Positions 1,435-55,604 are shown, counted from the stretch's first letter. The stretch: DNA of 64,000 nt from Janthinobacterium lividum (GCA_050954545.1 JBPBQB010000288.1:1291-65290); one strand, 5' to 3'. A program made the numbers and translations. Notes: generated by a model not told the origin, from the letters alone.

Positions 1435-2807
1435 CAGATACACAACATAATTCGTCTTCTACTAATCCGCCGCACAAGCACCCTCGCCCGATTGTCGCCA
1501 AGTTCGGCGGCTCATCAGTGGCCGATGCGGATCAAATCCGTAAGATCGCCGCGATCGTTCATGCCGATCCCCGGCGGCGGTTCGTGGTCGTGTCTGCGCC
1601 GGGCAAGCGGACGGACAAAGATAAGAAGATCACGGATCTGCTCTATCTCTGCCACTCGCTTGGAGAACAGGGGCTGGATGCCTCCGCGCCGTTCGCGATC
1701 ATCAAAGAGCGCTACTTAGGCATCGCGGCGGATCTGAACGTGCCGGGTGCGTGGGAATGGCTGCGGGACATCGGGCAGCAGATCGCATCGGGCGCGGCGA
1801 AAGACTGGGTGGCATCGCGCGGCGAGTACCTGAGTGCGCGGATCATTGCCGAGTTTTTGGGCGGCGAGTTTGTGGACGCTGCCGACAGCGGTATCCGGTT
1901 CGGCACAGATGGCCGGTTCCATCCCGGCGAAAGCTATGGGCGGCTCGGCGCTCGGCTTCAGTCCGTTCCCGAGGGCAAGATCGCCGTCATTCCCGGTTTC
2001 TACGGCCAGGACACCCAGGGCAAGATCAAGTGCTTCTCACGCGGCGGTTCCGATGTCACCGGTGCGATTGTTGCCCGTGCCGTCCACGCCGCCATTTATG
2101 AGAACTGGACCGATGTGTCCGGGCTTCTTATGGCCGACCCGCGCCTCGTCGAAAACCCCTGCGCGATCGAGGAAATCACCTACCGGGAGCAGCGCGAGCT
2201 TTCCTACATGGGCGCGACCGTGCTGCACGATGAGGCAGTGTTCCCTGTCCGTGAAGCCGGTATCCCGATCCATATCAAGAACACGAACGCCCCGGAAGAC
2301 CCCGGCACACGCATTGTCACTCAGCGGGATTCGCGCAATACCAGCGTGGTCGGGATTGCCGGACGTAAAGGCTTCGCGACACTGTTCACCGAAAAAGCTA
2401 TGATGAACCAGGAGCGCGGCTACGGGCGCAAAGTGCTGGAAATTCTCGAGTCGCACGGCATTTCCTATGAGCATTCGCCGACCAGTATCGACACGCTTTC
2501 GGTGATTTTGACCGACGAAGAGCTCGACGGCAAAGAAGCCGAGGTCGTCGCCGAAATCCAGCGCGTCGTCCAGCCTGACCGCATCGAAGTCCAGCGCGAC
2601 ATGGCCATGCTCGCTGTCGTTGGTCAGGGCATGGTTCACCGGGTCGGCATCGCCGCCCAGGTCTTCGCGGCTCTGGCAGGCGCAGGCGTTAACATCCGCA
2701 TGATCAACCAGGGTTCCAGTGAGCTAAACATCATCGTCGGCGTCCCCGCCGACGACTACGAAAATGCCATCCGTGCCATCTACGACGCATTTGCGGGACA
2801 GGAGTAA
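1431..2807 (+). CDS. lysC: aspartate kinase
   Basis: KFGGSSVAD kinase motif, 458 aa, C-terminal ACT-like region. Confidence 0.9.
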   Translation: MTDTQHNSSSTNPPHKHPRPIVAKFGGSSVADADQIRKIAAIVHADPRRRFVVVSAPGKRTDKDKKITDLLYLCHSLGEQGLDASAPFAIIKERYLGIAADLNVPGAWEWLRDIGQQIASGAAKDWVASRGEYLSARIIAEFLGGEFVDAADSGIRFGTDGRFHPGESYGRLGARLQSVPEGKIAVIPGFYGQDTQGKIKCFSRGGSDVTGAIVARAVHAAIYENWTDVSGLLMADPRLVENPCAIEEITYREQRELSYMGATVLHDEAVFPVREAGIPIHIKNTNAPEDPGTRIVTQRDSRNTSVVGIAGRKGFATLFTEKAMMNQERGYGRKVLEILESHGISYEHSPTSIDTLSVILTDEELDGKEAEVVAEIQRVVQPDRIEVQRDMAMLAVVGQGMVHRVGIAAQVFAALAGAGVNIRMINQGSSELNIIVGVPADDYENAIRAIYDAFAGQE

Positions 2808-2814
2808 GTTCACT

Positions 2815-3582
2815 ATGGCGTATGTTCCTAAAATTCCTGTAGAGGCCCCTGATTACAAAATCTGTTCGGACTTTATAATAGGGCAGATTTCAGCAATTAT
2901 GGCAGATGCCCTAAGTGTCGGCAACAACAAAATTTTTATTCACACAAATCTAAAGCGTGGTTTACCTCTCGAAAACATCAACAAAATTGCCGGACCTTTT
3001 GTTGAAGCCTGGGCAATGGAGCAGTTTGAGAATATCGCGGATATATTTGACAACGCTTACAAATTAATTTACGCAGAAGCAGGAAGGCGATTAGATGCAC
3101 ATGACATCATTTTACAATTTCGTCGCGCTGACAAACAAGCAGGATATGTCTCCGCTTATGTTGATGTCAAAGCAACTGCAGAGGATATATTAAGTTCAGG
3201 GAAAAGCCCGAATATCACTTCATATGCGCGTATCCGCTCTGAGTATATCAATGACCCTGACTATATCTTTATTGTTCTCTCGCTAAAGCATCGTGTTTTC
3301 AGTGAAAAGCAGAAAGATACGGGAATGACGAATGGTATTATGGAAGTCGTGTCATACTCTGTTTACGATCTGAAATTTATTTCTGAGGCCGACCTAAGTT
3401 ACAACCCTTCTCTCGGAACTGGTCAGCTTCAGATTCGGGATATTCATTATGTCCAGCTCGTTGCAAGAACAACTTGGGACTTCTGTCAGATGCTCGACGC
3501 GAAGTTTATGCGATCGCGTTCGCGGGGCGAAGAAGGCTGGTTGCTGATGGCCAAGAAGTATGGATGGGTAAAGGAGATTTAG
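2815..3582 (+). CDS. putative type II restriction endonuclease
   Basis: ATG 7 nt after lysC stop. Ends 4 nt before the methyltransferase gene. Possible PD-(D/E)XK elements (AHDIILQF ... YVDVKAT). No family recognised. Confidence 0.5.
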   Translation: MAYVPKIPVEAPDYKICSDFIIGQISAIMADALSVGNNKIFIHTNLKRGLPLENINKIAGPFVEAWAMEQFENIADIFDNAYKLIYAEAGRRLDAHDIILQFRRADKQAGYVSAYVDVKATAEDILSSGKSPNITSYARIRSEYINDPDYIFIVLSLKHRVFSEKQKDTGMTNGIMEVVSYSVYDLKFISEADLSYNPSLGTGQLQIRDIHYVQLVARTTWDFCQMLDAKFMRSRSRGEEGWLLMAKKYGWVKEI

Positions 3583-3586
3583 TGGC

Positions 3587-4435
3587 ATGGAAGCAGAAGC
3601 TATAGAAACTGACCGGCTGATTTGCGGCGATGCCGTTGCAGTAATGAAGACACTGCCCAGCGGTACGGTCGATTTGATTATCGCTGACCCTCCTTACAAT
3701 TTAGGTAAGGACTATGGCAACAATACTGATCGGAAAGCTAGGCACGAGTACGAAGAGTTTACGACACAGTGGCTAGAGGAAGCTGTTCGGCTCTTGAAGC
3801 CTAACGGTTCTATCTATGTCTTTATGGGTGTTCGGTTCATTTCCAGCCTGTTTCTCATGATGGAGGATAGATGCCAGTTAATTTTCAATGGATGGATTAC
3901 TTGGCACTATACACAAGGGATGGGAAGAAAGCTCGGATTTTCTCCAAGGCATGAGGACATTTTGTATTTTACTAAAAGCACAAAATTCATTTTTAATGTG
4001 GATGACGTAAGAATTCCACAGAAGTACTTTCGCAAGCGCAACAATATGAGTGGTGCCAACCCAGGCGACGTTTGGCAGTTTTCTCATGTTCATTATTGTA
4101 GCACGGAGCGTCAGGAGCACCCAACCCAGAAACCGGAAGCACTGCTGGAGCGCATCATTTTGGCTTCAAGCAACGAGAAAAACGTGATTCTGGATCCATT
4201 TGTTGGCAGCGGAACAACCTGCCGTGTCGCGAAATTATTGAACCGCAAATGGATCGGAATTGAGATCAACCCAGAATACATTTCTATGAGTACTAAACGT
4301 ATAGAAGACTCTAGTTATCAATTGGACTCTGTTGACCCTCGTACTTTACGGACTCCCAAAGACTTGCCAAAGGTGCCATCAGCATCACTGGAAACTTCTT
4401 TATCAACAGGCATTCTATCTCTCCCAGGTTTATAA
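3587..4435 (+). CDS. beta-class DNA N6-adenine/N4-cytosine methyltransferase
   Basis: Motif IV IIADPPYN near the N-terminus and motif I ILDPFVGSGTT near the C-terminus (beta-class order). Confidence 0.9.
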   Translation: MEAEAIETDRLICGDAVAVMKTLPSGTVDLIIADPPYNLGKDYGNNTDRKARHEYEEFTTQWLEEAVRLLKPNGSIYVFMGVRFISSLFLMMEDRCQLIFNGWITWHYTQGMGRKLGFSPRHEDILYFTKSTKFIFNVDDVRIPQKYFRKRNNMSGANPGDVWQFSHVHYCSTERQEHPTQKPEALLERIILASSNEKNVILDPFVGSGTTCRVAKLLNRKWIGIEINPEYISMSTKRIEDSSYQLDSVDPRTLRTPKDLPKVPSASLETSLSTGILSLPGL

Positions 4436-4441
4436 TGGCAT

Positions 4442-4593
4442 CCCAAGTTTTCGCGGCTCTGGCAGGCGCAGGCGTCAACATCCGCATGATCAACCAGGGT
4501 TCCAGCGAGCTAAACATCATCGTCGGCGTCCCCGCCGACGACTACGAAAACGCCATCCGTGCCATCTACGAGGCATTTGCGGGACAGGAATAA
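4442..4593 (+). pseudogene. duplicated lysC 3' end (last 50 codons plus stop), non-functional copy
   Basis: About 95% identical to 2656-2807 by hand alignment. No upstream lysC body. Confidence 0.9.
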
Positions 4594-4812
4594 GCCATGA
4601 GCTTGATTTGGGAAATGGTAAAGAGCGAAAGGAAAAACAAAAGTTTTTTCGGCGGGGTGATCTCCCCAATGTGGCGAACGAAAGTCCCTGGCGGATGGTT
4701 TATCATGATCGTTGGCCCATCGGATGCCGCCTTCTTCTACCCAGACCCGGAGCACCTCTGGGATGGTTCTTCGCTGCCATAGAGGTACAAAAGATGGCAG
4801 GGGGTAACGCCG

Positions 4813-36752: not shown

Positions 36753-36782
36753 TTGACTCTCCTGCCTCCCAGCGTCTATACT
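36753..36782 (+). promoter_or_regulatory. sigma-70-like promoter TTGACT-18-TATACT of the T-box leader
   Basis: TTGACT 36753-36758, TATACT 36777-36782. Confidence 0.55.
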
Positions 36783-36788
36783 AAGTCC

Positions 36789-37035
36789 AATCCCGGCCTT
36801 GATGGGGAAGAGTAAGCGGCACCGACTGCATTAGAGAGGGAACGCCACCGGCTGCAAGCGTTCCCGCAGCCAAGCCGCCGAAGGTCGCCCCGGAGCCGAA
36901 GTCGAAAATGAGTGTTTGCGCTGGGTTTACTGGCGCAGAAAGCAAGGTGGTACCGCGCGTCGGCTACGTTCAGCGTAAAGCCCCCGCGTCCTTGCGATAG
37001 GTTAAACCCTGTCGCGATGGACGCGGGGGCTTTTG
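36789..37035 (+). promoter_or_regulatory. T-box riboswitch leader, probable Val (GUC) specifier, with terminator
   Basis: T-box sequence AAAGCAAGGTGGTACCGCG at 36939-36957. Stem I elements GATGGGGAAGAGTAAG and TTAGAGAGGG. GAAGGUCG at 36881-36887. Terminator AAAGCCCCCGCGTCC ... GGACGCGGGGGCTTTT at 36977-37034. Confidence 0.8.
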
Positions 37036-37050
37036 TGGTTTGGAGCGATT

Positions 37051-37662
37051 ATGAGAACAGCCTACAGCGTAATTGTTGCCCTAATTCTGCTGACAGGAGT
37101 GTCAGTGCAGGCACAGCAGGTGGTCGTGCCGGGCCGCAGCATAGGAACAATCACGCTTGGAATGCCAGGGCCCGAAGTTTGGAAGCATTTGGGCAGGCCA
37201 ACAGTCTATTTCCTGCACCTTGCCGGACGGTCTTACGTCTGTGACTGCTTTGAAGTCAGCAACAAGCGTGAGATTGTGACTTCGCATTACGGGCAGGTCG
37301 TTCAGATTGAGCGCGATGTGACGGACGACGAACGCCGCAAATATTTCTTTCCGTTCCTGCGCGGGCAATACCCGTACCTAAAAGCCACATTGTATGATGT
37401 ACCTGAAGAAGATGGCTGTACGATTAAGGCAGATAATGTTTCGCAAGGTATAGCATGGGCAATTTTCATTATCCACTATCAAGATGGCGCGTTTAGCGCT
37501 AAAGTACTAAACGACATCGGTCCGGGCAGAGTAATTGTGCATTGGCCTGGCACAAAGGTTTTGCCCAACGCCGGAGAAATTAAAGATGAGCACGACTCAT
37601 CTTTCGGTGATATTCGCGCCTGGTTTGCGGCAAAGCCACCCAAGCCGCATAAAGGAAACTAA
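37051..37662 (+). CDS. hypothetical exported protein directly after the T-box terminator
   Basis: GGAG 37042-37045, ATG 37051. MRTAYSVIVALILLTGVSVQAQQ signal peptide. 203 aa. Confidence 0.6.
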   Translation: MRTAYSVIVALILLTGVSVQAQQVVVPGRSIGTITLGMPGPEVWKHLGRPTVYFLHLAGRSYVCDCFEVSNKREIVTSHYGQVVQIERDVTDDERRKYFFPFLRGQYPYLKATLYDVPEEDGCTIKADNVSQGIAWAIFIIHYQDGAFSAKVLNDIGPGRVIVHWPGTKVLPNAGEIKDEHDSSFGDIRAWFAAKPPKPHKGN

Positions 37663-37663
37663 T

Positions 37664-37741
37664 ATGGAAAAAGCTTGCGAACCTAAAGATGTGGAAGCGC
37701 GGCTGTGCCCAGAGTGGAAAGATGGCTCTTTAAATGGATAA
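37664..37741 (+). pseudogene. truncated duplicate of the valS 5' end (19 valS codons, then stop)
   Basis: MEKACEPKDVEARLCPEWK versus the true valS MEKAYEPKDVEARLYPEWE. Part of direct repeat 37651-37721 = 39350-39420. Confidence 0.85.
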
Positions 37742-39188
37742 TGCGGAATTATCGAGCCTGCTTACGACTTTACGCGCCGAACCTCATGAATCGGAGTGGA
37801 TAGAGTTCAAGGAGAACAACGAAGCCCCAGACATGATCGGGCAACGACTGTCTGCGCTTGCCAATGCTGCGGCTCTGCTTGGGAAAGAGCGGGCTTACTT
37901 CGTCTGGGGTATCGAAGATGGCTCCCATCGCATTGTTGGCACGACGTTTTCTCCGCGTCGGGCAAAAGTAGGCAATGAAGAACTCGAATCCTGGCTGTCA
38001 CATCATCTGAGTCCCTGTCCTGACTTTCGGATCCATGTCTTACCGGTCCAGGAAACTTCAGTCGTTTTGTTTGAAATTACTCCAGCACAGCACACTCCTG
38101 TTCGCTGGAAGGAAACTGCGTATGTCCGCATCGGAAGTTATACGAAAAAGCTTCAAGATTACCCTGAAAAGGAACGGTCCCTCTGGCTCACACTATCTCG
38201 GCATCCCTTCGAGAGTCGGGTCGCGCTTTCTGGCTGCTCGGAAGATGATATTTTGTCCCTTTTGGATTATGATGCCTACTTTCGACTGACAAAGCAAAGT
38301 CTTCCAGCCACTAGAATCGGTATTTTAGAGCGTTTAGCCAGCGAAAAGATGATTGTTCGCAAAGAAGAACGTTTTGACGTTCTCAATCTTGGAGGGTTGC
38401 TTTTTGCCCGCAGGTTATCCGATTTCAGTACGCTGAGTCGTAGGGCAACACGAGTTATTGATTACTCGGGAAATGCACGAATTAGTGGAGGTCGAGAGCA
38501 TATTTCGCTTTCTGGATACGCTGCTGGTTTCGAGTCTTTAATTGCTTACATAAAGACCCGCTTGCCGAACAATGAGCACATTGCTCAAGCCCTCCGAGTC
38601 GAAACCGAAATTTATCCTGAGATCGCGCTTCGTGAACTCGTGGCCAATGCAATTATCCATCAGGACTTGGACGCTCAAGGCGACAGTCCCTTTGTCGAGA
38701 TGTTTGAAGATCGCCTTGAAATCACCAATCCTGGAAGGCCGCTAATCAGTCCACTGCGTTTTATTGATGAGCCGCCACAGTCGCGCAACGAAACACTTGC
38801 AGCATTTATGCGGCGTGTTAACATCTGTGAAGAACGTGGCAGTGGTATTGACAAAGTCATCCATGCCGTCGAAATCTGGCAGTTACCAGCACCGGAATTC
38901 ACGGAGACAGAGCGGCACACACGGATTTACCTTCATGCGCCGCGAACTTTCCGGGAAATGAGCACTAAGGATCGAACTCGTGCTTGTTATCAGCATGTTT
39001 GTTTGATGTATGTCTTCAATCAATCCGCGACGAATTCAAGCCTTCGTAAACGATTTTCTTTTCAAGATGAGGATTACAAGATTGTCTCTAAAATTATCAA
39101 TGACACAACGAAAGAGGGCATGATTAAACCTTACGATTCTGAGAACCGTTCGCGGCGTCATGCACGGTATATTCCTTTCTGGGCGTAG
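37734..39188 (+). CDS. AlbA_2 (Schlafen-like) DNA-binding domain protein with HATPase_c_4-like C-terminal domain
   Basis: N-terminus ESEWIEFKENNEAPDMIGQRLSALANA. C-half RELVANAIIHQDL...LEITNPGRPL. 484 aa, typical length for this architecture. Confidence 0.7.
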   Translation: MDNAELSSLLTTLRAEPHESEWIEFKENNEAPDMIGQRLSALANAAALLGKERAYFVWGIEDGSHRIVGTTFSPRRAKVGNEELESWLSHHLSPCPDFRIHVLPVQETSVVLFEITPAQHTPVRWKETAYVRIGSYTKKLQDYPEKERSLWLTLSRHPFESRVALSGCSEDDILSLLDYDAYFRLTKQSLPATRIGILERLASEKMIVRKEERFDVLNLGGLLFARRLSDFSTLSRRATRVIDYSGNARISGGREHISLSGYAAGFESLIAYIKTRLPNNEHIAQALRVETEIYPEIALRELVANAIIHQDLDAQGDSPFVEMFEDRLEITNPGRPLISPLRFIDEPPQSRNETLAAFMRRVNICEERGSGIDKVIHAVEIWQLPAPEFTETERHTRIYLHAPRTFREMSTKDRTRACYQHVCLMYVFNQSATNSSLRKRFSFQDEDYKIVSKIINDTTKEGMIKPYDSENRSRRHARYIPFWA

Positions 39189-39201
39189 GCGGATTGTGTA
39201 A

Positions 39202-39341
39202 TTTCTTATATCCCTCTTATATCAGATTTATGGTATTACAGATAGCTCTCGGAAACAATATCTAGATAAAGGTATTGAATTGATACTATATCTAGGGTTT
39301 TATTCCATTTAGGAGCAGGTTTCTTATATCCCTTTTATATC
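39202..39341 (+). repeat. 22-bp direct repeat pair in the AT-rich cassette tail
   Basis: TTTCTTATATCCCTCTTATATC (39202-39223) and TTTCTTATATCCCTTTTATATC (39320-39341), 1 mismatch. Confidence 0.85.
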
Positions 39342-39362
39342 TTGTTTGCAAAGGAAACTAAT

Positions 39363-42206
39363 ATGGAAAAAGCTTACGAACCCAAAGACGTGGAAGCGCG
39401 GCTGTACCCGGAGTGGGAAGCGGCAGGGCTGTTTCATGCGGAGCCGACACCGGGGAAGCCGAAGTTCAGTATCAGCATTCCCCCGCCTAATGTCACGGGC
39501 AGCCTGCATATGGGCCATGCCCTCAACCATGCGGTGCAGGATACGCTTGGGCGCTGGCACAAGATGCAGGGCGATACGGTGCTGATCCTGCCCGGCATGG
39601 ATCATGCGGGGATCGCGACACAGACGGTTGTTTCCCGGCAGATCGAGAAGGAAGGGCTGACGCGCTTTGATCTGGGCCGCGAGAAGTTTGTCGAGCGTGT
39701 ATGGGCCTGGAAGGAAGAATACGGTTCACGCATTCTCGTTCAGCTCAAGCGGCTGGGCTGCGGGTACGACTGGTCACGCCTCCGCTTCACGATGGACCCG
39801 GAATATGCCGAGGCCGTGGCGGAAGCGTTTGTCCGCTTCTTTGATGCCGGGCTGATCTACCGGGGCAAACGAATGGTGAACTGGTCGGTGGGCCTGCAAA
39901 CGGTTATCTCGGATATTGAAGTGGAAAATATCGAGACCGACGGCTCACTCTGGCACATTAATTACCCGTTCGCTGATGGTTCCGGCACTGTTACGGTGGC
40001 GACGACGCGCCCGGAAACACTGCTCGGCGATACGGCTGTGGCAGTCAACCCGGCCGATCCCCGCTATGCCGGGCTGATCGGCAAGATGCTGCTCCTTCCG
40101 CTGACCAATCGCGAGATCCCGCTGATCGCCGACGATTACGCGAGTATGGAGTTCGGGACGGGCGCAGTCAAGATCACCCCGGCCCATGACCCGAACGACT
40201 ATGAAGTAGGCCTGCGTCACAATCTGCCTCAGATCGCCGTGATCGGCTTCGACGGCAAAATGACCGAAGACGCCGGGGTTCGTTACGCAGGGCAGGACCG
40301 CTTTGAGGCGCGGGACCTGATTGTCGGTGATTTGGAAGCCGCCGGTGTACTCGAAAAGATCGAGCCATACCGTCATTCCATCCCGCATTGTGACCGGAGC
40401 AAGACCGTGATTGAGCCGCTGCTGTCCGAGCAGTGGTTCATGAAGATGGCCGGCACGGAACTGATCCAGAAGGCCACCGACATCGTGAATGACGGTGCGA
40501 TCCAGTTCGCCCCGAACCGCTACGCCAAGACCTATGTCGATTGGATGGACGGCATTCGCGACTGGGCCTTGTCTCGTCAGCTCTGGTGGGGCCACCGCAT
40601 TCCCATCTACTACAAGCCCGATGGGACTTATGTCGCCGCGAGAAATCTCGCCGAAGCGGTGGACCGTGCAGGCACTGACCAGTTGACGCAGGACGAAGAC
40701 GTACTCGATACGTGGTTTTCGTCTGCTCTGTGGCCGTTCGCGACTCTGGGCTGGCCGCACCAGACTCCTGATTTGGACTATTTCTATCCGACCGATTTCC
40801 TGACTACCGCCGGCGAAATCCTGCGCCTCTGGGTCGCGCGTATGGTGATGACCGGCTTAGAGTTCACCGGTAAGAAGCCTTTCTCCGACGTCTACATCCA
40901 TGCGACGGTGCTTGACAAAAAAGGCCGCCGGATGTCTAAAAGCCTCGGCAACGGCGTTGACCCTGTCGAGATGATCGATAAGTACGGGGCCGACGCCCTG
41001 CGCTTCTCCCTGCTGCGTCTGGCTTCCAAAGGCCAGGACATCAAGTTCAGCGAAGAGCGGGTACCTGAATCGCGTAACTTTGCCAACAAGCTCTGGAACG
41101 CCGCCCGCTTTGTGCTGATGAATATGGAACCCACCCCTGCTCGTTCCTCGCTTTCCCCTCCCGAAACGGGAAGGGTAGGAGATGGAGAAAAGATCACGGG
41201 CATGGACACTGACGTTCCTCTTCCAGACTTTACCGAGTTTTTCGCTGAACATACTAATGCCAGCATCGCTAAAACTCTTAGTCCTCCCGTTTCGGGAGGA
41301 CCCCTGCGAAGCAAGGAGGTGGGTTCCCTCCCGGAACGCTGGATACTCTCACGTTTGCAGCGGACGGTACAAACTGTGAACAGTGCGCTGGGAACTTACG
41401 ACATGGACGATGCCTGCGGGGCGCTCTATGAGTTTGTCTGGGGCGAGTATTGTGACTGGTTTGTCGAGCTGTGTAAGCCTTCGCTGCAAGGTGAAGACGA
41501 CTCGGCTAAAGACTCGGCTCGGGCAGCGCTTTATACAGTGCTCGAAACGACACTACGCCTGCTGCACCCGATCATGCCATTTGTGACGGAAGAAATCTGG
41601 CAAAATCTGCCGGGTAAGACCGAAAGCATTAGCCTGGCCCCTTACCCTATTTTAGATGAGGCTTTGATCGATACTGAGGCTGAGGCCGGGATCGGACTGC
41701 TGATCGAGAGCATCACGGCTTTGCGCGGCTTGCGGGCGGAATTCACGCCGGGCGGACAGGAAAACGAAGCCGCACGGGCCGCAATGCTCAACCGAAAGTT
41801 GACAGTCATTGCCGTTGCTGAAAGCGCAGCAGCGACCGCAACATTGCGCGGACAGTTGCCCGCCCTTGTTGCGCTTGCGCGTCTCGGTGAAGTGTCTGTT
41901 GCGGACGCTGTGCCGACAAACGGCAAATATGTTCCCGCCGGTGTTTCCGGCGCGGCGTTCTACGTCCCTGCCGGTGAGCTGCTGGAAGGTCTCGACCCAG
42001 CAAAAGAGTCCGCACGGCTGGAAGCAGAGATCGTTAAACTAGACAAAGAGCTTGCCGGAGTGCAGGGGCGATTGAACAATCCAAGCTTTGTCGAGCGAGC
42101 GTTGCCGGAAGTCGTCGAAAAAGCACGGGCTGACGCCGCTGATTTGGTTCAGCGTCAGACAAAACTGGAAATGCGGCGCGGACTGCTGACAAGCACCCAG
42201 GATTGA
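39363..42206 (+). CDS. valS: valine--tRNA ligase
   Basis: HIGH-type SLHMGHALN, KMSKS-type RMSKSLGN, C-terminal coiled coil. ATG 39363. Confidence 0.95.
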   Translation: MEKAYEPKDVEARLYPEWEAAGLFHAEPTPGKPKFSISIPPPNVTGSLHMGHALNHAVQDTLGRWHKMQGDTVLILPGMDHAGIATQTVVSRQIEKEGLTRFDLGREKFVERVWAWKEEYGSRILVQLKRLGCGYDWSRLRFTMDPEYAEAVAEAFVRFFDAGLIYRGKRMVNWSVGLQTVISDIEVENIETDGSLWHINYPFADGSGTVTVATTRPETLLGDTAVAVNPADPRYAGLIGKMLLLPLTNREIPLIADDYASMEFGTGAVKITPAHDPNDYEVGLRHNLPQIAVIGFDGKMTEDAGVRYAGQDRFEARDLIVGDLEAAGVLEKIEPYRHSIPHCDRSKTVIEPLLSEQWFMKMAGTELIQKATDIVNDGAIQFAPNRYAKTYVDWMDGIRDWALSRQLWWGHRIPIYYKPDGTYVAARNLAEAVDRAGTDQLTQDEDVLDTWFSSALWPFATLGWPHQTPDLDYFYPTDFLTTAGEILRLWVARMVMTGLEFTGKKPFSDVYIHATVLDKKGRRMSKSLGNGVDPVEMIDKYGADALRFSLLRLASKGQDIKFSEERVPESRNFANKLWNAARFVLMNMEPTPARSSLSPPETGRVGDGEKITGMDTDVPLPDFTEFFAEHTNASIAKTLSPPVSGGPLRSKEVGSLPERWILSRLQRTVQTVNSALGTYDMDDACGALYEFVWGEYCDWFVELCKPSLQGEDDSAKDSARAALYTVLETTLRLLHPIMPFVTEEIWQNLPGKTESISLAPYPILDEALIDTEAEAGIGLLIESITALRGLRAEFTPGGQENEAARAAMLNRKLTVIAVAESAAATATLRGQLPALVALARLGEVSVADAVPTNGKYVPAGVSGAAFYVPAGELLEGLDPAKESARLEAEIVKLDKELAGVQGRLNNPSFVERALPEVVEKARADAADLVQRQTKLEMRRGLLTSTQD
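41127..41326. repeat. degenerate palindromic element lying in frame inside valS
   Basis: Arms 41127-41175 and 41283-41326 share the GAACCCACC terminus and a CTCCCGAAACGGGA(A)GG core in inverted orientation. The left arm aligns with the arm of the 13008 element. Confidence 0.6.
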
Positions 42207-46815: not shown

Positions 46816-46929
46816 AATTACCAAAAATAGTTTTTGGTTTGGGCGAAATCGCCCTAAAGAAATCGTTCACTTTGACCTATAATAGTTTTGTTACCGGCCA
46901 GAGTGGCGCGGGACAAATAAATGACGACG

Positions 46930-47060
46930 ACACTAAAGGCAAACCCGCCGGCATTGCCGGGTGATCGAAAGACGGGGACGCAAAGCTAAAGGGTCTAAGG
47001 CCGCTCACGCTGCTATGATCGCCAAGCCGCCGCACCGCCTGCGTAAACGGGTGAAGACCC
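46930..47060 (+). promoter_or_regulatory. c-di-GMP-I (GEMM-I) riboswitch candidate upstream of flgM
   Basis: AAAGGCAAACCC 46935-46946, GAAA tetraloop 46967-46970, GGGGACGCAAAGC 46974-46986. Tetraloop-receptor-like CTAAGG ... TATG at 46995-47016. Confidence 0.6.
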
Positions 47061-49377: not shown

Positions 49378-49997
49378 ACGACTCAAGAGTCGTATTATGC
49401 GCCGGCGCAACTTCCGACTCTTGAGTCGTGTATTTATTATCTAAATGGGGCAAATCATGGATGAAATTGATAGAGAACGATTTTCTTTAAGCTATGTGTT
49501 TATAGATGACTGCTGGATCTGGTTTCGCAGCCTTGTCAAAGATGGCTACGGATCAATTCGTATTGCGGGCAGAACACGTCGCGCTCATCGGGTGTCTTAC
49601 GAACTTGCTTATGGTGTAGTATTGTCTCCTGACCAATTCTTACATCATATATGTAAGAATAAGGCTTGTGTGAATCCACTGCATCTTGAAATTACCACCC
49701 AAGCGCCCTATGTCGACAGTGCAATTTACGGCAACAAAGAAAAGACGCATTGTCCTTACGGGCATGAATACACAGAAGCGAATACCTGCTGGCGTAAAAA
49801 CAAGAAGCAAAGAGAATGTATGACATGCAAATTGGCTAGAATGAAACGGCGTCAGGTACGTATACAGCAGGCGGCGGCAGAAAAGCTGGAAGCATTAGCA
49901 CTGAAATGTCGCCTGACGACACCTCAATAAACATATACACAGTATACGATTCAAGAGTCAGAAGTTGCGCCGGCGCATAATACGACTCTTGAGTCGT
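49378..49997. mobile_element. HNH nuclease gene flanked by inverted copies of a 52-bp hairpin
   Basis: 49378-49429 and 49946-49997 are reverse complements (2 mismatches). Each is itself a 15-bp-stem hairpin. Interior AT-rich. Confidence 0.6.
49445..49930 (+). CDS. HNH endonuclease
   Basis: CWIW...DGYGSIRIAGRTRRAHRVSYEL...HHICKNKACVNPLHLE plus C-terminal Cys/His cluster THCPYGHEY...CMTC. Confidence 0.8.
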   Translation: MGQIMDEIDRERFSLSYVFIDDCWIWFRSLVKDGYGSIRIAGRTRRAHRVSYELAYGVVLSPDQFLHHICKNKACVNPLHLEITTQAPYVDSAIYGNKEKTHCPYGHEYTEANTCWRKNKKQRECMTCKLARMKRRQVRIQQAAAEKLEALALKCRLTTPQ

Positions 49998-50019
49998 ATA
50001 TGAAACGAGTGGGATTGTT

Positions 50020-54452: not shown

Positions 54453-55073
54453 ATGGCATCATTGCCCAAAACTCGCTATACACCGGAGCAATATCTGGAA
54501 ATCGACCGCAAGGCTGAACACCGCAGTGAATATGTCAATGGCGAGATTCGGGCGATGGCCGGGGCAAGCCGGGAACATAACCTGATTGTCACAAATCTTG
54601 TACGAGAGCTGAGCCTTCGTTTGCGCGGTCAGCCGTGCGAGACATACTCTAATGATATGCGCGTCACCATCAGCCTAGTTCGTTATGCTTATCCTGATGT
54701 GGTTATTGCCTGCAATCATCCACAGTTCATAGACGGTCAACTGGACACTCTAACCAATCCTAGCGTCATAATAGAAGTGTTATCATCGACAACTCAAAAT
54801 GACGACCGAAGCTGGAAATTTGCACATTACCGGCGTCTGGCAACGCTTACCGATTACGTGATGCTTTCTCAATACCAGCCGTTTGCAGAACATTACGCGC
54901 GGCAAAGCGATAACCAGTGGGTTTTAACAGAGCTGAGTGGCCTGGAGGCCGTTTTGCTTCTGCCTTCTCTTGGCTGTGAGCTATCACTGGCTGATATTTA
55001 CGAGCGCATCGAGTTCACGCCTGACCCGGACATGCCTGCACTGGAACTGTGGAAAAACGAACCCCAGGGTTAA
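54453..55073 (+). CDS. Uma2-family (DUF820) endonuclease
   Basis: YTPEQYLEIDRKAEHRSEYVNGEIRAMAGASREHNLIVTNL is the Uma2 N-terminal signature. Confidence 0.8.
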   Translation: MASLPKTRYTPEQYLEIDRKAEHRSEYVNGEIRAMAGASREHNLIVTNLVRELSLRLRGQPCETYSNDMRVTISLVRYAYPDVVIACNHPQFIDGQLDTLTNPSVIIEVLSSTTQNDDRSWKFAHYRRLATLTDYVMLSQYQPFAEHYARQSDNQWVLTELSGLEAVLLLPSLGCELSLADIYERIEFTPDPDMPALELWKNEPQG

Positions 55074-55084
55074 GACAGAAAACT

Positions 55085-55348
55085 ATGACGACAATCACAC
55101 TCACACCCGACCTAGAAGAAGCCATCTCAGCACAGGCACGTAAGCAAGCGACGACACCCGAGCAGGTCGTCTTGGAAATACTTCGCGAGAAATTCCTGCC
55201 GCTGCTGGAACAGATAAACGAAACAGACACGCTGAGTGACTGGGAGCGGCAGATGCAGGACGCAGCAATCGCGGTCGAAGAAGCACTGGCGCAGAACTGT
55301 GCGGTGCTAAAGGGAAAAAATAATGACGACAATCACATTGACACCTGA
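55085..55348 (+). CDS. small antitoxin-like protein, copy 1 of a tandem pair
   Basis: MTTITLTPDLEEAISAQARKQATTPEQVVLEIL. Its 3' end reads through the duplicated start region of copy 2. Confidence 0.45.
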   Translation: MTTITLTPDLEEAISAQARKQATTPEQVVLEILREKFLPLLEQINETDTLSDWERQMQDAAIAVEEALAQNCAVLKGKNNDDNHIDT

Positions 55349-55604
55349 ACTGGAAGCAGTTCTTAATCAGAGGGCCGCGACCCAAGGAATAACGCCTGAG
55401 CGGCTGGCGCTTGATGGCTTGCGACAGCTTTACATGACACCGCCGGTGAATGAAAAAAGACCCGAGGAAGAAAGCAGCGAGACTCTATTTGACTTCCTGA
55501 ATGGATATGTCGGAACTATTGCGGGAAGCACGGAAGCCTTTTCAGAGAACGGCGGTGAGAGGTTTGCACAGGGGCTTGCCGAGAAGCACGAGCTTCAGAA
55601 ATGA
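55323..55604 (+). CDS. VapB-type antitoxin candidate, copy 2
   Basis: MTTITLTPELEAVLNQRAATQGITPERLALDGL. ATGA overlap with the vapC start. Confidence 0.55.
   Translation: MTTITLTPELEAVLNQRAATQGITPERLALDGLRQLYMTPPVNEKRPEEESSETLFDFLNGYVGTIAGSTEAFSENGGERFAQGLAEKHELQK

What the first reader, a model, noticed from the sequence alone, without database searches (positions are those of the whole stretch)
37651..39420. Schlafen-like (AlbA_2) ATPase cassette inserted at the valS start with a 71-bp target duplication, capturing the T-box-controlled leader
37651-37721 and 39350-39420 are direct repeats (71 nt, 6 mismatches by hand). Each contains the valS ribosome-binding context, the ATG and 19 codons. 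The upstream copy is a dead fragment (MEKACEPKDVEARLCPEWK, stop at 37741) with Tyr-to-Cys and Glu-to-Lys changes relative to the live gene. Between them lie 1,628 bp. These carry one gene (AlbA_2 N-terminal domain plus HATPase_c_4-like C-terminus) and a 161-bp AT-rich tail. This is the same architecture as the lysC/R-M insertion: a housekeeping gene terminus is duplicated, the insert is ~1.63 kb, and its GC is lower. The window therefore holds two independent examples. The cassette ATG lies 12 nt after the duplicated valS start. The cassette gene is thus positioned to be expressed from the Val T-box leader, in response to uncharged tRNA-Val. The essential valS may now depend on read-through or on a new promoter in the AT-rich tail. 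Any functional link between a Schlafen-like protein and tRNA-charging status is speculation.
Basis: partly seen in the sequence, partly recalled or inferred. Interest (0 to 1): 0.7.

Follow-up and report, generated by a model that had tools for sequence, protein, structure and literature searches.

The report
Schlafen gene cassette inserted before valS
One foreign gene for a bacterial Schlafen-type protein sits between a valine-sensing T-box riboswitch and the essential valyl-tRNA synthetase gene, with 71 bases of the target duplicated so the essential gene stays whole; this way of inserting was known for restriction enzymes, but the cargo, the site and a repeat-bearing tail shared by the whole gene family are new details.

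Summary
37651-37721 and 39350-39420 are a 65/71 direct repeat of the valS ribosome-binding site, ATG and 19 codons. It flanks 1,628 bp that hold one gene (Schlafen/AlbA_2 + histidine-kinase-like ATPase + HTH, 484 aa) and a 161-bp AT-rich tail.

The two closest relatives have clean empty sites. A sister clade carries the same cassette at the same place. The window's copy nests inside that clade's cassettes although its ValS does not, so it arrived by horizontal transfer.

The Val (GUC) T-box is real but lies about 650 bp upstream, with an unrelated secreted-protein ORF in between. No terminator or consensus promoter separates T-box, cassette and valS. All eight related loci keep the Val T-box, so co-transcription is likely but not shown.

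The structure matches "insertion with long target duplication", described for restriction-modification genes by Nobusato (2000) and Furuta (2010). The lysC/R-M case in this window is a textbook example with empty sites.

Two family-wide features are new. About half of the cassette gene's relatives across phyla carry a pair or array of 11-nt-phased direct repeats straight after the stop codon. About 15% are flanked by long direct repeats.

Function and insertion mechanism remain inferred.

The parts
36753..36782 (+). sigma-70-like promoter (TTGACT-18-TATACT) just before the T-box
   Evidence: consensus match only
36790..37040 (+). Val T-box leader (specifier GUC, T-box sequence AAGGUGGUACCGCG) with terminator hairpin 36977-36991/37019-37033 and a U-run
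   Evidence: Rfam RF00230, 73.8 bits (below gathering score 93), E 2e-15. Hairpin I3. GUC specifier kept in 8 related loci.
37051..37662 (+). ORF209: 203 aa from the ATG, signal-peptide-like N-terminus, no family match. It lies between the T-box and valS, and its last codons and stop lie inside the repeat.
   Evidence: Homologue at the same place in L001, 50% identical.
37651..37721 (+). upstream copy of the 71-nt target duplication (end of ORF209, valS RBS, ATG, 19 codons)
37664..37741 (+). valS' mini-ORF (25 codons). Its TAA overlaps the cassette ATG (ATGGATAA); proposed translational-coupling leader.
   Evidence: Same 8-nt overlap in L003; stop 2 nt before the ATG in L015. Inference.
37734..39188 (+). 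cassette gene: prokaryotic Schlafen (AlbA_2) + His-kinase-like ATPase (HATPase_c_4) + C-terminal helical/HTH region, 484 aa
   Evidence: Pfam. AF2 pLDDT 85.6. Foldseek 3LMM E 1e-18 and SLFN13/14/11/5 N-domains E 1e-4 to 1e-5. GC3 45.8% against 67.0% for valS.
39189..39349 (+). AT-rich tail of the cassette: two 22-nt motif copies (39202-39223, 39320-39341), each with two TTATATC half-sites 11 nt apart, plus single ATATC sites at 39258 and 39288, all on the + strand
   Evidence: Homologous tails in L003, L011, L013, L015, L016, L017 and L018. No conserved RNA fold.
39350..39420 (+). downstream copy of the target duplication, joined to the live gene
39363..42206 (+). valS (valine-tRNA ligase, 947 aa), intact
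   Evidence: Pfam. Homologues. Downstream synteny PMT_2-PfkB as in relatives.
2649..4594 (+). second case in the window: lysC 3' end (2649-2808) duplicated at 4435-4594 around a type II REase (2815-3582) and MTase (3587-4435)
   Evidence: Empty sites L097 and L098.

Best explanation
What it is. The insert is a one-gene, apparently promoterless cassette. The gene encodes a prokaryotic Schlafen protein of the Slfn-HisKinase-HTH class, and it carries its own ~165-bp tail of phased direct-repeat sites.

How it got here. The cassette entered this Armatimonadota lineage by horizontal transfer. The source was a sister clade in which the same cassette already sits between the Val T-box and valS. Integration used the highly conserved first ~60 nt of valS and left a 71-bp duplication of the target (RBS, ATG, 19 codons). 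This is the 'insertion with long target duplication' pattern known from restriction-modification genes. The R-M pair after lysC in the same window shows the same pattern.

What the duplication does. The downstream copy keeps valS and its RBS intact. The upstream copy gives the cassette gene a ready-made RBS and start codon. These head a 25-codon leader ORF that ends on the cassette ATG.

Expression. The transcript most likely runs promoter, T-box, ORF209, valS', Schlafen gene, tail, valS. Both the Schlafen protein and ValS would then be switched on by uncharged tRNA-Val.

Shown: the repeat, the domains, the empty and occupied sites, the tree conflict, and the lack of terminator or promoter signals.
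Inferred: co-transcription, translational coupling, the recombination route, and any tRNase or defence activity of the protein.
For: Structure
- Repeat and insert anatomy.
- Empty sites in the two nearest relatives, with the same ORF209-valS junction in L001.
- The same cassette (77-85% aa identity) lies between T-box and valS in L003-L010, L011, L013, L015, L017 and L102.

Horizontal transfer
- ValS groups the window with L001, L002 and the genomes of L016 and L018 (79-89%). It is 70-75% identical to L003, L011 and L013.
- The cassette protein groups the window with L003 and L011 (85%, 82%), inside that other clade.
- At DNA level the window-L003 cassette identity is 75.2%. That exceeds L003-L013 (73.2%), although valS shows the opposite order.
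- Cassette GC3 is 46% against 67% for valS.

Origin of the repeat copies
- Both copies carry the clade-A-specific Pro16 codon. They are closer to each other than to any relative, so both derive from this lineage's own valS.
- The left and right pairs in L003 and L015 behave the same way, but with different end points (+153, about +60).

No other mobility genes
- No integrase or transposase lies in the insert or among its neighbours.

Transcription
- The GUC specifier and T-box sequence are kept in all 8 loci.
- The tail has no terminator-like site, no consensus promoter and no stable or conserved fold.

Known class
- Furuta 2010 (PMC2853133) notes that such repeats often span a start or stop codon and leave the target gene intact.
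- The lysC/R-M case has its own empty sites.
Against: - There are no expression data. Co-transcription and coupling rest on the absence of signals and on T-box conservation.
- The T-box hit is below Rfam's gathering score (73.8 against 93).
- The donor is unsampled. The nearest cassette is only 75% identical in DNA.
- Both repeat copies are of recipient type. Simple import of a ready-made repeat-flanked cassette by double crossover is therefore not directly supported. Gene conversion between the copies cannot be excluded.
- The site is occupied in at least 7 lineages. L003 and L011 co-diverge with their valS, so part of the distribution is vertical. L001 and L002 could be secondary losses through recombination between the repeats.
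- All sequences are metagenome assemblies.
Confidence: 0.65

Rival explanations
1. Ancient resident, not a recent insertion. The cassette entered the T-box-valS unit once in a common ancestor and was inherited vertically. The 'empty' relatives lost it through recombination between the repeats. Gene conversion keeps the repeats similar within each lineage.
For: - The cassette sits at the same site in at least 7 lineages spanning ValS identities of 70-90%.
- L003 and L011 show matching divergence of cassette and valS.
- Deletion mediated by the repeats would leave a clean site such as L001.
- The T-box is conserved everywhere.
Against: - The window's cassette nests inside the other ValS clade.
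- Cassette GC3 is far below host GC3 in the window, L013 and L017.
- Left junctions and repeat end points differ between loci: none, about +60, +57, +153.
- Clade-A relatives L016 and L018 carry a different cassette lineage at another site.
Confidence: 0.2
2. Self-mobilising cassette. The Schlafen-ATPase-HTH protein binds the phased repeats in its own tail and itself promotes excision and insertion (a DNA break or strand transfer). That would explain the long target duplications without any integrase.
For: - A repeat pair starts within 30 nt of the stop codon in 44 of 85 family loci, against 1% of control windows.
- The motif differs between lineages but is always two half-sites 11 nt apart on the gene strand.
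- Spacings cluster at multiples of 11.
- Flanking repeats of at least 38 nt occur in 12 of 78 family loci against 2 of 133 control intervals.
- The second motif copy marks the right edge of the cassette in every valS-linked locus.
Against: - No recombinase-like domain was found. The known activity of Schlafen domains is tRNA/RNA cleavage (PMC13056530).
- The repeats lie on one side of the gene only.
- Some of the 12 flanking repeats are copies of the tail itself rather than target duplications (L058, L059, L061, L091).
- The R-M insert at lysC has the same duplication type without this protein or motif.
Confidence: 0.1
3. Remnant of an integrase-mediated island. The 71-bp repeats are attL and attR of a larger element that later lost its integrase and other genes.
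For: Integrative elements often target gene ends and carry a replacement copy of that end. The repeats are imperfect (92%).
Against: - None of the 8 occupied loci has an integrase within or beside the insert.
- Repeat length differs between loci (0, about 60, 71, 155 nt).
- Both copies are of recipient type.
- The insert is a single gene in every case.
Confidence: 0.04
4. Assembly artefact of a metagenome bin.
For: The contig comes from a MAG carrying an implausible species label.
Against: - The two copies differ at 6 of 71 positions.
- The same layout recurs in 22 contigs read (8 places shown) from different metagenome samples, and in a long-contig genome assembly.
Confidence: 0.01

Closest known systems
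Insertion with long target duplication of restriction-modification genes (Nobusato et al. 2000, Gene 259:99; Furuta, Abe & Kobayashi 2010, PMC2853133)
   Same: - A small insert with no integrase or transposase.
- Flanked by direct repeats longer than 30 bp that match a single-copy sequence in an empty-site relative.
- The repeat spans a start or stop codon, so the target gene survives.
- The insert has lower GC than the host.
- The lysC/R-M insert in this window fits in every respect.
   Different: - The valS cargo is not an R-M system, whereas the published screens required R and M genes and proposed restriction-type DNA breakage as the cause.
- The site is occupied repeatedly in related lineages.
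- The cassette brings a conserved repeat-bearing tail.
- The target is inside a riboswitch-controlled operon.
Prokaryotic Schlafen proteins, Slfn-HisKinase-HTH class (Nat Microbiol 2026, PMC13056530); Photorhabdus TrlG (PMC7554251)
   Same: - PF04326 N-terminal domain with invariant acidic residues.
- PF13749 His-kinase-like ATPase and a C-terminal helical/HTH region.
- Patchy distribution across phyla, plasmids, a phage and satellite phages.
   Different: - No member of this architecture has a shown biochemical activity. By the abstract's count (seven systems expressed, two protective, of the DUF262 and Ig-like types), the HisKinase fusions gave no protection in E. coli; TrlG limits growth at high temperature.
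- T-box control, linkage to valS and the 3' repeat tail are not mentioned in the passages of these papers that I retrieved by term search.
Integron gene cassettes
   Same: A promoterless single ORF followed by a ~60-170-bp non-coding element, inserted downstream of a resident promoter. Different unrelated ORFs accumulate at the same spot (ORF209, ORF220, ORF181/80).
   Different: The tail has direct repeats rather than the imperfect inverted repeats of attC. There is no integrase or attI, and long target duplications do not occur with integrons.
Campbell-type / 'ends-in' homologous integration of DNA carrying a short stretch of target homology
   Same: It yields an insert flanked by a duplication as long as the shared homology. 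The conserved valS 5' end (about 91% identical between clades, against about 72% for the whole gene) is a plausible anchor.
   Different: The simple hybrid pattern expected (donor-type sequence in one part of each copy) is not seen, because both copies are of recipient type. No circular form has been observed.
T-box-regulated aminoacyl-tRNA synthetase operons
   Same: A Val-specifier T-box leader with a terminator upstream of valS, conserved in all relatives.
   Different: Foreign genes lie between the leader and the synthetase gene, so accessory proteins come under tRNA-charging control.

Membership tests
Insertion with long target duplication (Furuta 2010 criteria) | Insert flanked by direct repeats longer than 30 bp | tested here: met
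   71 nt, 65/71 identical. lysC case: 160 nt, 94%.
Insertion with long target duplication (Furuta 2010 criteria) | The repeat matches a single-copy sequence at an empty site in a related genome | tested here: met
   L001 and L002 for valS. L097 and L098 for lysC.
Insertion with long target duplication (Furuta 2010 criteria) | Insert under 20 kb with no other mobility genes | tested here: met
   1,628 bp with one ORF. Of the eight neighbouring ORFs scanned against Pfam, four match non-mobility families and four match nothing; none matches an integrase or transposase family.
Insertion with long target duplication (Furuta 2010 criteria) | Insert contains R and M gene homologues | tested here: not met
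   The valS cargo is a Schlafen-ATPase-HTH gene with no R-M match in PADLOC. The criterion is met for the lysC insert.
Prokaryotic Schlafen, Slfn-HisKinase-HTH | PF04326 Schlafen/AlbA_2 domain above the Pfam cut-off | tested here: met
   64.9 bits against a cut-off of 25.3. Foldseek hits to SLFN13/14/11/5 N-domains.
Prokaryotic Schlafen, Slfn-HisKinase-HTH | His-kinase-like ATPase domain | tested here: met
   PF13749, 79.8 bits. Weak fold matches to histidine-kinase CA domains.
Prokaryotic Schlafen, Slfn-HisKinase-HTH | Acidic nuclease site (E/D five residues apart, as E15/D20 in RorSlfn5) | tested here: inconclusive
   E19, E21, E24 and K26 are invariant in 37 homologues. D62 is D in 30 and N in 7. 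No residue-level superposition was done.
Prokaryotic Schlafen, Slfn-HisKinase-HTH | tRNA cleavage / phage defence | not testable with these tools
   Needs biochemistry and phage assays.
T-box leader (RF00230) | Score at or above the Rfam gathering threshold | tested here: not met
   73.8 bits against 93; E 2e-15, full-length match 1-219.
T-box leader (RF00230) | Specifier codon, T-box sequence and terminator | tested here: met
   GAA-G-GUC-G specifier context, AAGGUGGUACCGCG, and hairpin 36977-37033 plus a U-run. Conserved in 8 loci.
Integron cassette | attC-type imperfect inverted repeat at the 3' end; integrase/attI nearby | tested here: not met
   The tail repeats are direct and all on one strand. 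No integrase.
Integrase-mediated genomic island | Tyrosine or serine recombinase inside the element; att repeats of fixed length | tested here: not met
   Single ORF. Repeat length ranges from 0 to 155 nt among loci.

The most novel reading that the evidence does not exclude
The Slfn-HisKinase-HTH gene together with its 3' array of 11-nt-phased repeats is an autonomous one-gene mobile unit. Its HTH binds the array, and the protein (or the nucleoprotein complex it forms) drives insertion at gene ends with long target duplications. In this Armatimonadota group the unit has settled in the T-box-valS operon. That places a tRNA-directed nuclease under control of tRNA-Val charging. If the nuclease destroys the T-box's own inducer, this would form a feedback loop.
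Probability: 0.12. Interest if true: 0.8.

Novelty: new variant of a known kind. Interest (0 to 1): 0.55.

Why it matters
- Long-target-duplication insertion has so far been tied to restriction-modification genes and explained by their DNA cutting. A non-R-M cargo with the same footprint lies 35 kb from a canonical R-M example in the same genome. This argues that the mechanism belongs to the host or to the DNA-uptake route, not to the cargo.
- The case shows how a foreign gene can enter an essential, riboswitch-controlled operon without harm. The duplication rebuilds the essential gene's start and lends the newcomer a translation start.
- The most common class of bacterial Schlafen proteins has no known function. 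A conserved, phased repeat array directly after the gene gives a concrete, testable ligand for its HTH domain. Stable linkage to a T-box and valS in one clade gives a testable connection to tRNA biology.

Tried and rejected
- Rfam on the tail, at both gathering and E-value thresholds: no family.
- RNAalifold on eight tails: zero conserved pairs. The single-sequence fold is no better than shuffles, z = -0.17. A structured RNA or a terminator in the tail is therefore rejected.
- Promoter scan: no consensus sigma-70 site in the tail.
- PADLOC and NCBIfam give no meaningful hit for the cassette protein. PDB sequence search gives none.
- Shared terminal motif between the valS and lysC inserts: none.
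- Integron attC and integrase-island readings: rejected (direct repeats only, no recombinase).
- Simple Campbell or double-crossover import with hybrid repeats: not supported, because both copies carry recipient-type codons.
- ORFs between T-box and cassette in other loci (ORF220, ORF181, ORF80) are unrelated to ORF209, so ORF209 is not part of the cassette.
- Metagenome pattern scan for tail-plus-valS junctions: two true loci (L102, L103), neither closer to the window; five chance hits.
- General link of the family to tRNA synthetase genes outside this clade: not seen with a ValS probe.


Full report
**1. The observation**

The region was read directly. Positions 37651-37721 and 39350-39420 are an ungapped direct repeat, 65 of 71 identical (E 2.4e-25). 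The 64-kb window holds no third copy.

Each copy contains AAAGGAAACTAAT, an ATG and 19 codons of valS. The downstream copy continues into an intact 947-aa valine-tRNA ligase gene (39363-42206; Pfam). The upstream copy carries Y5C, Y15C and E19K and runs on to a TAA at 37739-37741.

The 1,628 bp between the copies are:
- a 12-nt junction;
- one ORF at 37734-39188 (484 aa);
- a 161-bp tail with 31.5% GC.

**2. The cassette protein**

The ORF matches SLFN_AlbA_2 at residues 19-140 and HATPase_c_4 at residues 316-399, both well above the Pfam cut-offs.

An AlphaFold model built on 37 homologues has mean pLDDT 85.6. Its Foldseek matches are:
- the whole of 3LMM (DIP2311, E 1e-18);
- the N-terminal nuclease domains of SLFN13, 14, 11 and 5 (E 1e-4 to 1e-5);
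- 2KYY;
- more weakly, histidine-kinase ATP-binding domains.

E19, E21, E24, F25 and K26 are invariant. D62 is Asp in 30 of 37 sequences.

This is the Slfn-HisKinase-HTH architecture. A 2026 survey found it in 19% of 5,930 prokaryotic Schlafens (PMC13056530). That paper shows that a differently built member, RorSlfn5, is a phage-activated, Mn-dependent tRNase. By its abstract's count (seven systems expressed, two protective, of the DUF262 and Ig-like types), the HisKinase fusions tested did not protect E. coli. The only studied protein with the same two Pfam domains that I found is Photorhabdus TrlG, whose loss allows growth at 36 °C (PMC7554251).

PADLOC, NCBIfam and a PDB sequence search gave nothing useful.

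The family is spread across bacterial phyla, CPR and archaea at 47-71% identity. It also occurs on 67 plasmids, one Burkholderia phage and three streptococcal satellite phages.

**3. The T-box**

No T-box passes Rfam's gathering score. A full-length match (73.8 bits, E 2e-15) lies at 36790-36996. Its features are:
- a GAA-G-GUC-G specifier context (Val);
- the sequence AAGGUGGUACCGCG;
- a terminator hairpin at 36977-37033 followed by a U-run;
- a TTGACT-18-TATACT promoter-like site at 36753-36782 just before it.

The T-box is not adjacent to the repeat. A 203-aa ORF with a signal-peptide-like start and no family match (37051-37662) lies between them. Its last three codons and its stop are the first bases of the repeat.

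**4. Relatives**

The contig is labelled as a Janthinobacterium lividum MAG. All relatives are Armatimonadota/Capsulimonadaceae.

The two closest ValS relatives have empty sites:

| Locus | ValS identity to window | Layout |
|---|---|---|
| L001 | 87-90% | T-box, ORF209 homologue, CACAAAGGAAACTAGAG, valS ATG |
| L002 | 83-86% | T-box, valS |

Homologues of the cassette protein at 77-85% identity all lie between a Val T-box and valS in another clade:

| Locus | Layout |
|---|---|
| L003-L010 (22 contigs read) | T-box, 51-codon valS fragment, cassette, valS; 155-nt repeat with 7 mismatches |
| L015 | T-box, unrelated ORF220, ~20-codon valS fragment, cassette, valS; ~60-nt repeat |
| L011 | T-box, unrelated ORF181 and ORF80, cassette, valS; no repeat |
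| L013 | T-box, cassette directly, valS; no repeat |

L017 and L102 resemble L013 but carry a more distant cassette (69-70%). In L016 and L018, which are clade-A genomes by ValS, a 69-71% homologue sits elsewhere, after a DUF4337 gene.

Nothing is conserved upstream of the cassette ATG. The tail is homologous in all loci and ends 10-45 nt before the valS ATG. The mobile unit is therefore the ORF plus its tail, with no promoter of its own that I could see.

**5. Insertion or inheritance?**

Trees and identities:
- ValS groups the window with L001, L002 and the genomes of L016 and L018 (79-89%). It is 70-75% identical to L003, L011 and L013.
- The cassette protein places the window next to L003 and L011 (85%, 82%), inside the group formed by L003, L011, L013 and L015.
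- In DNA, the window-L003 cassette identity (75.2%) exceeds L003-L013 (73.2%) and L003-L015 (73.3%). valS shows the reverse order (72.8% against 79.8% and 81.5%).

Composition: cassette GC3 is below host GC3 everywhere. It is far below in the window (46 against 67), L013 (51 against 80) and L017 (50 against 77), and nearly equalised in L011 (83 against 88).

Reading: I take this as horizontal arrival in the window's lineage from the other clade's pool, with some vertical descent inside that clade (L003/L011).

Rough timing: the six differences between the repeat copies, set against the five synonymous differences between the window and L001 over the same stretch, put the duplication (or the last gene conversion) after the split from L001. 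This is a rough estimate.

**6. How the duplication arose**

Within each repeat-bearing locus, the left and right copies share lineage-specific codons. In the window both have Pro16, typical of clade A. L003 and L015 have their own variants. Both copies therefore derive from the recipient's own valS or have been homogenised. The end points also differ between loci (+57, about +60, +153).

A simple double crossover that imports a ready-made repeat-flanked cassette, or a Campbell integration leaving hybrid copies, is not directly supported.

The pattern does fit the empirical class 'insertion with long target duplication' (Nobusato 2000; Furuta 2010, PMC2853133):
- repeats longer than 30 bp;
- no mobility genes;
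- an empty site in a relative;
- repeats that often span a start or stop codon, so the gene survives.

The mechanism of that class is unknown. The authors suggested double-strand breaks made by the restriction enzymes.

The first ~56 nt of valS are about 91% identical between clades, against about 72% for the whole gene. This makes them a natural anchor for homology-dependent ('ends-in') integration with gap repair from the recipient. That route is my preferred one, but it is an inference.

**7. The second case in the window**

lysC 2649-2808 is repeated at 4435-4594 (160 nt, 94%). Between the copies lie 1,626 bp with 43.7% GC. They encode a type II REase (E 2e-87) and a MTase (E 3e-85).

Relatives with 90-91% LysC go straight from lysC to a 61-aa ORF and a nucleotidyltransferase gene (L097, L098). 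The two window copies are closer to each other (94%) than to those relatives (82-84%).

This is a canonical member of the known class. It shares no terminal motif with the valS cassette.

**8. Expression (inferred)**

- No terminator-like site above shuffle expectation and no consensus promoter lies between the T-box terminator and valS.
- The tail has no stable or conserved fold.
- All eight loci, occupied or empty, keep the GUC specifier and the T-box sequence. This is expected if the leader still governs valS through the inserted genes.
- The valS' mini-ORF (37664-37741) ends in ATGGATAA, overlapping the cassette ATG by 8 nt. L003 has the same 8-nt overlap, and L015 has the stop 2 nt before the ATG, although the junction sequences differ.
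- L013 and L017 lack the fragment and have their own Shine-Dalgarno-like sequence before the cassette ATG.

The 'dead' copy thus probably supplies the RBS and start for translational coupling.

**9. A family-wide feature**

The window's tail has two 22-nt copies of TTTCTTATATCCCTYTTATATC, 118 nt apart. Each copy has two TTATATC half-sites 11 nt apart. In all there are six ATATC sites, all on the + strand, against 0.72 per kb in the window.

Across 85 loci of the family:
- 44 have a 16-nt direct-repeat pair (at most 2 mismatches) whose first copy starts within 30 nt of the stop codon. Controls give 12 of 1,230 random windows and 2 of 1,700 shuffles.
- The motif differs by lineage (TTATATC, TNATGTGAY and TTTGTTGAT types). 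It is always two half-sites 11 nt apart on the gene strand.
- Spacings cluster at 66, 77, 88, 99, 110 and about 130 nt. The Rayleigh R is 0.71 at period 11, the best of the periods 8-15. The loci are not independent.
- Peribacillus L037 has 6.2 tandem 66-nt units.

Flanking direct repeats of at least 38 nt occur in 12 of 78 family loci, against 2 of 133 control intervals in the same loci. Examples are 406 nt in L044 and 166 nt of the 3' end of the upstream gene in L056. Some of the 12 are copies of the tail itself (L058, L059, L061, L091).

The term searches I ran on the two Schlafen papers returned no mention of either feature; I did not read them in full. The natural guess is that the protein's HTH binds this array. 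Whether the array serves regulation, sensing or mobility is open.

**10. Verdict**

| Element | Status |
|---|---|
| Kind of event | known |
| Cargo class | known, but functionally unexplored |
| Non-R-M cargo with this footprint | new |
| Repeated occupation of a T-box-valS operon | new |
| Likely reuse of the duplicated start for translation | new |
| Repeat-array tail | new |

Interest is moderate.

Noticed in passing
window 2649-4594; L097, L098: A type II restriction-modification pair is inserted after lysC with a 160-nt duplication (94%) of the lysC 3' end. Relatives with 90-91% LysC lack the insert. The R gene ATG lies 7 nt after the lysC stop.
   Followed up: yes
tails of 85 family loci (L003-L096), e.g. 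L037 5454-5841; window 39189-39349: About half of all relatives of the cassette gene, across phyla and archaea, have a pair or array of direct repeats starting within 30 nt of the stop codon. Each repeat is two half-sites 11 nt apart, and the spacings are multiples of about 11 nt. L037 has 6.2 tandem 66-nt units.
   Followed up: partly
L044 3547-3952/5724-6129; L056 3574-3739/5685-5850; L024, L085, L046, L065, L052: Other members of the family in unrelated phyla are also flanked by long direct repeats (38-406 nt): 12 of 78 loci against 2 of 133 control intervals. No empty-site genomes were available to confirm that these are target duplications.
   Followed up: partly
window 37051-37662; L001 5376-5998; L015 3243-3905; L011 3175-3978: The stretch between the Val T-box and valS collects unrelated ORFs in different lineages: ORF209, ORF220, ORF181 and ORF80. 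ORF209 is only 50% identical between the window and L001, although ValS is 87-90% identical.
   Followed up: partly
window 46928-47034; L001 12666-12768; L002 13646-13743: A c-di-GMP-I riboswitch passes the Rfam gathering score. In L001 and L002 the homologous element lies directly before a FlgM-family gene.
   Followed up: no
window 49378-49433 and 49946-50001: 56-nt repeats flank a 161-aa ORF (49445-49930). The outer parts match directly, while the inner parts look swapped between the two copies. This could be an invertible or palindromic element.
   Followed up: no
whole window: NCBI labels the source contig as a Janthinobacterium lividum MAG. However, ValS, LysC and the cassette all have their nearest relatives in Armatimonadota/Capsulimonadaceae, and the locus uses a T-box. 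The label is probably wrong, or the contig is a bin contaminant.
   Followed up: partly
window 55072-55121 and 55310-55359: A 50-nt repeat (78%) spans the RBS and first codons of two short tandem ORFs 238 nt apart, probably paralogous small genes.
   Followed up: no
L003 609-3782: The UvrD-family helicase gene upstream of the L003 T-box carries an intein (Pfam Intein_splicing and Hint_2 hits on record).
   Followed up: no
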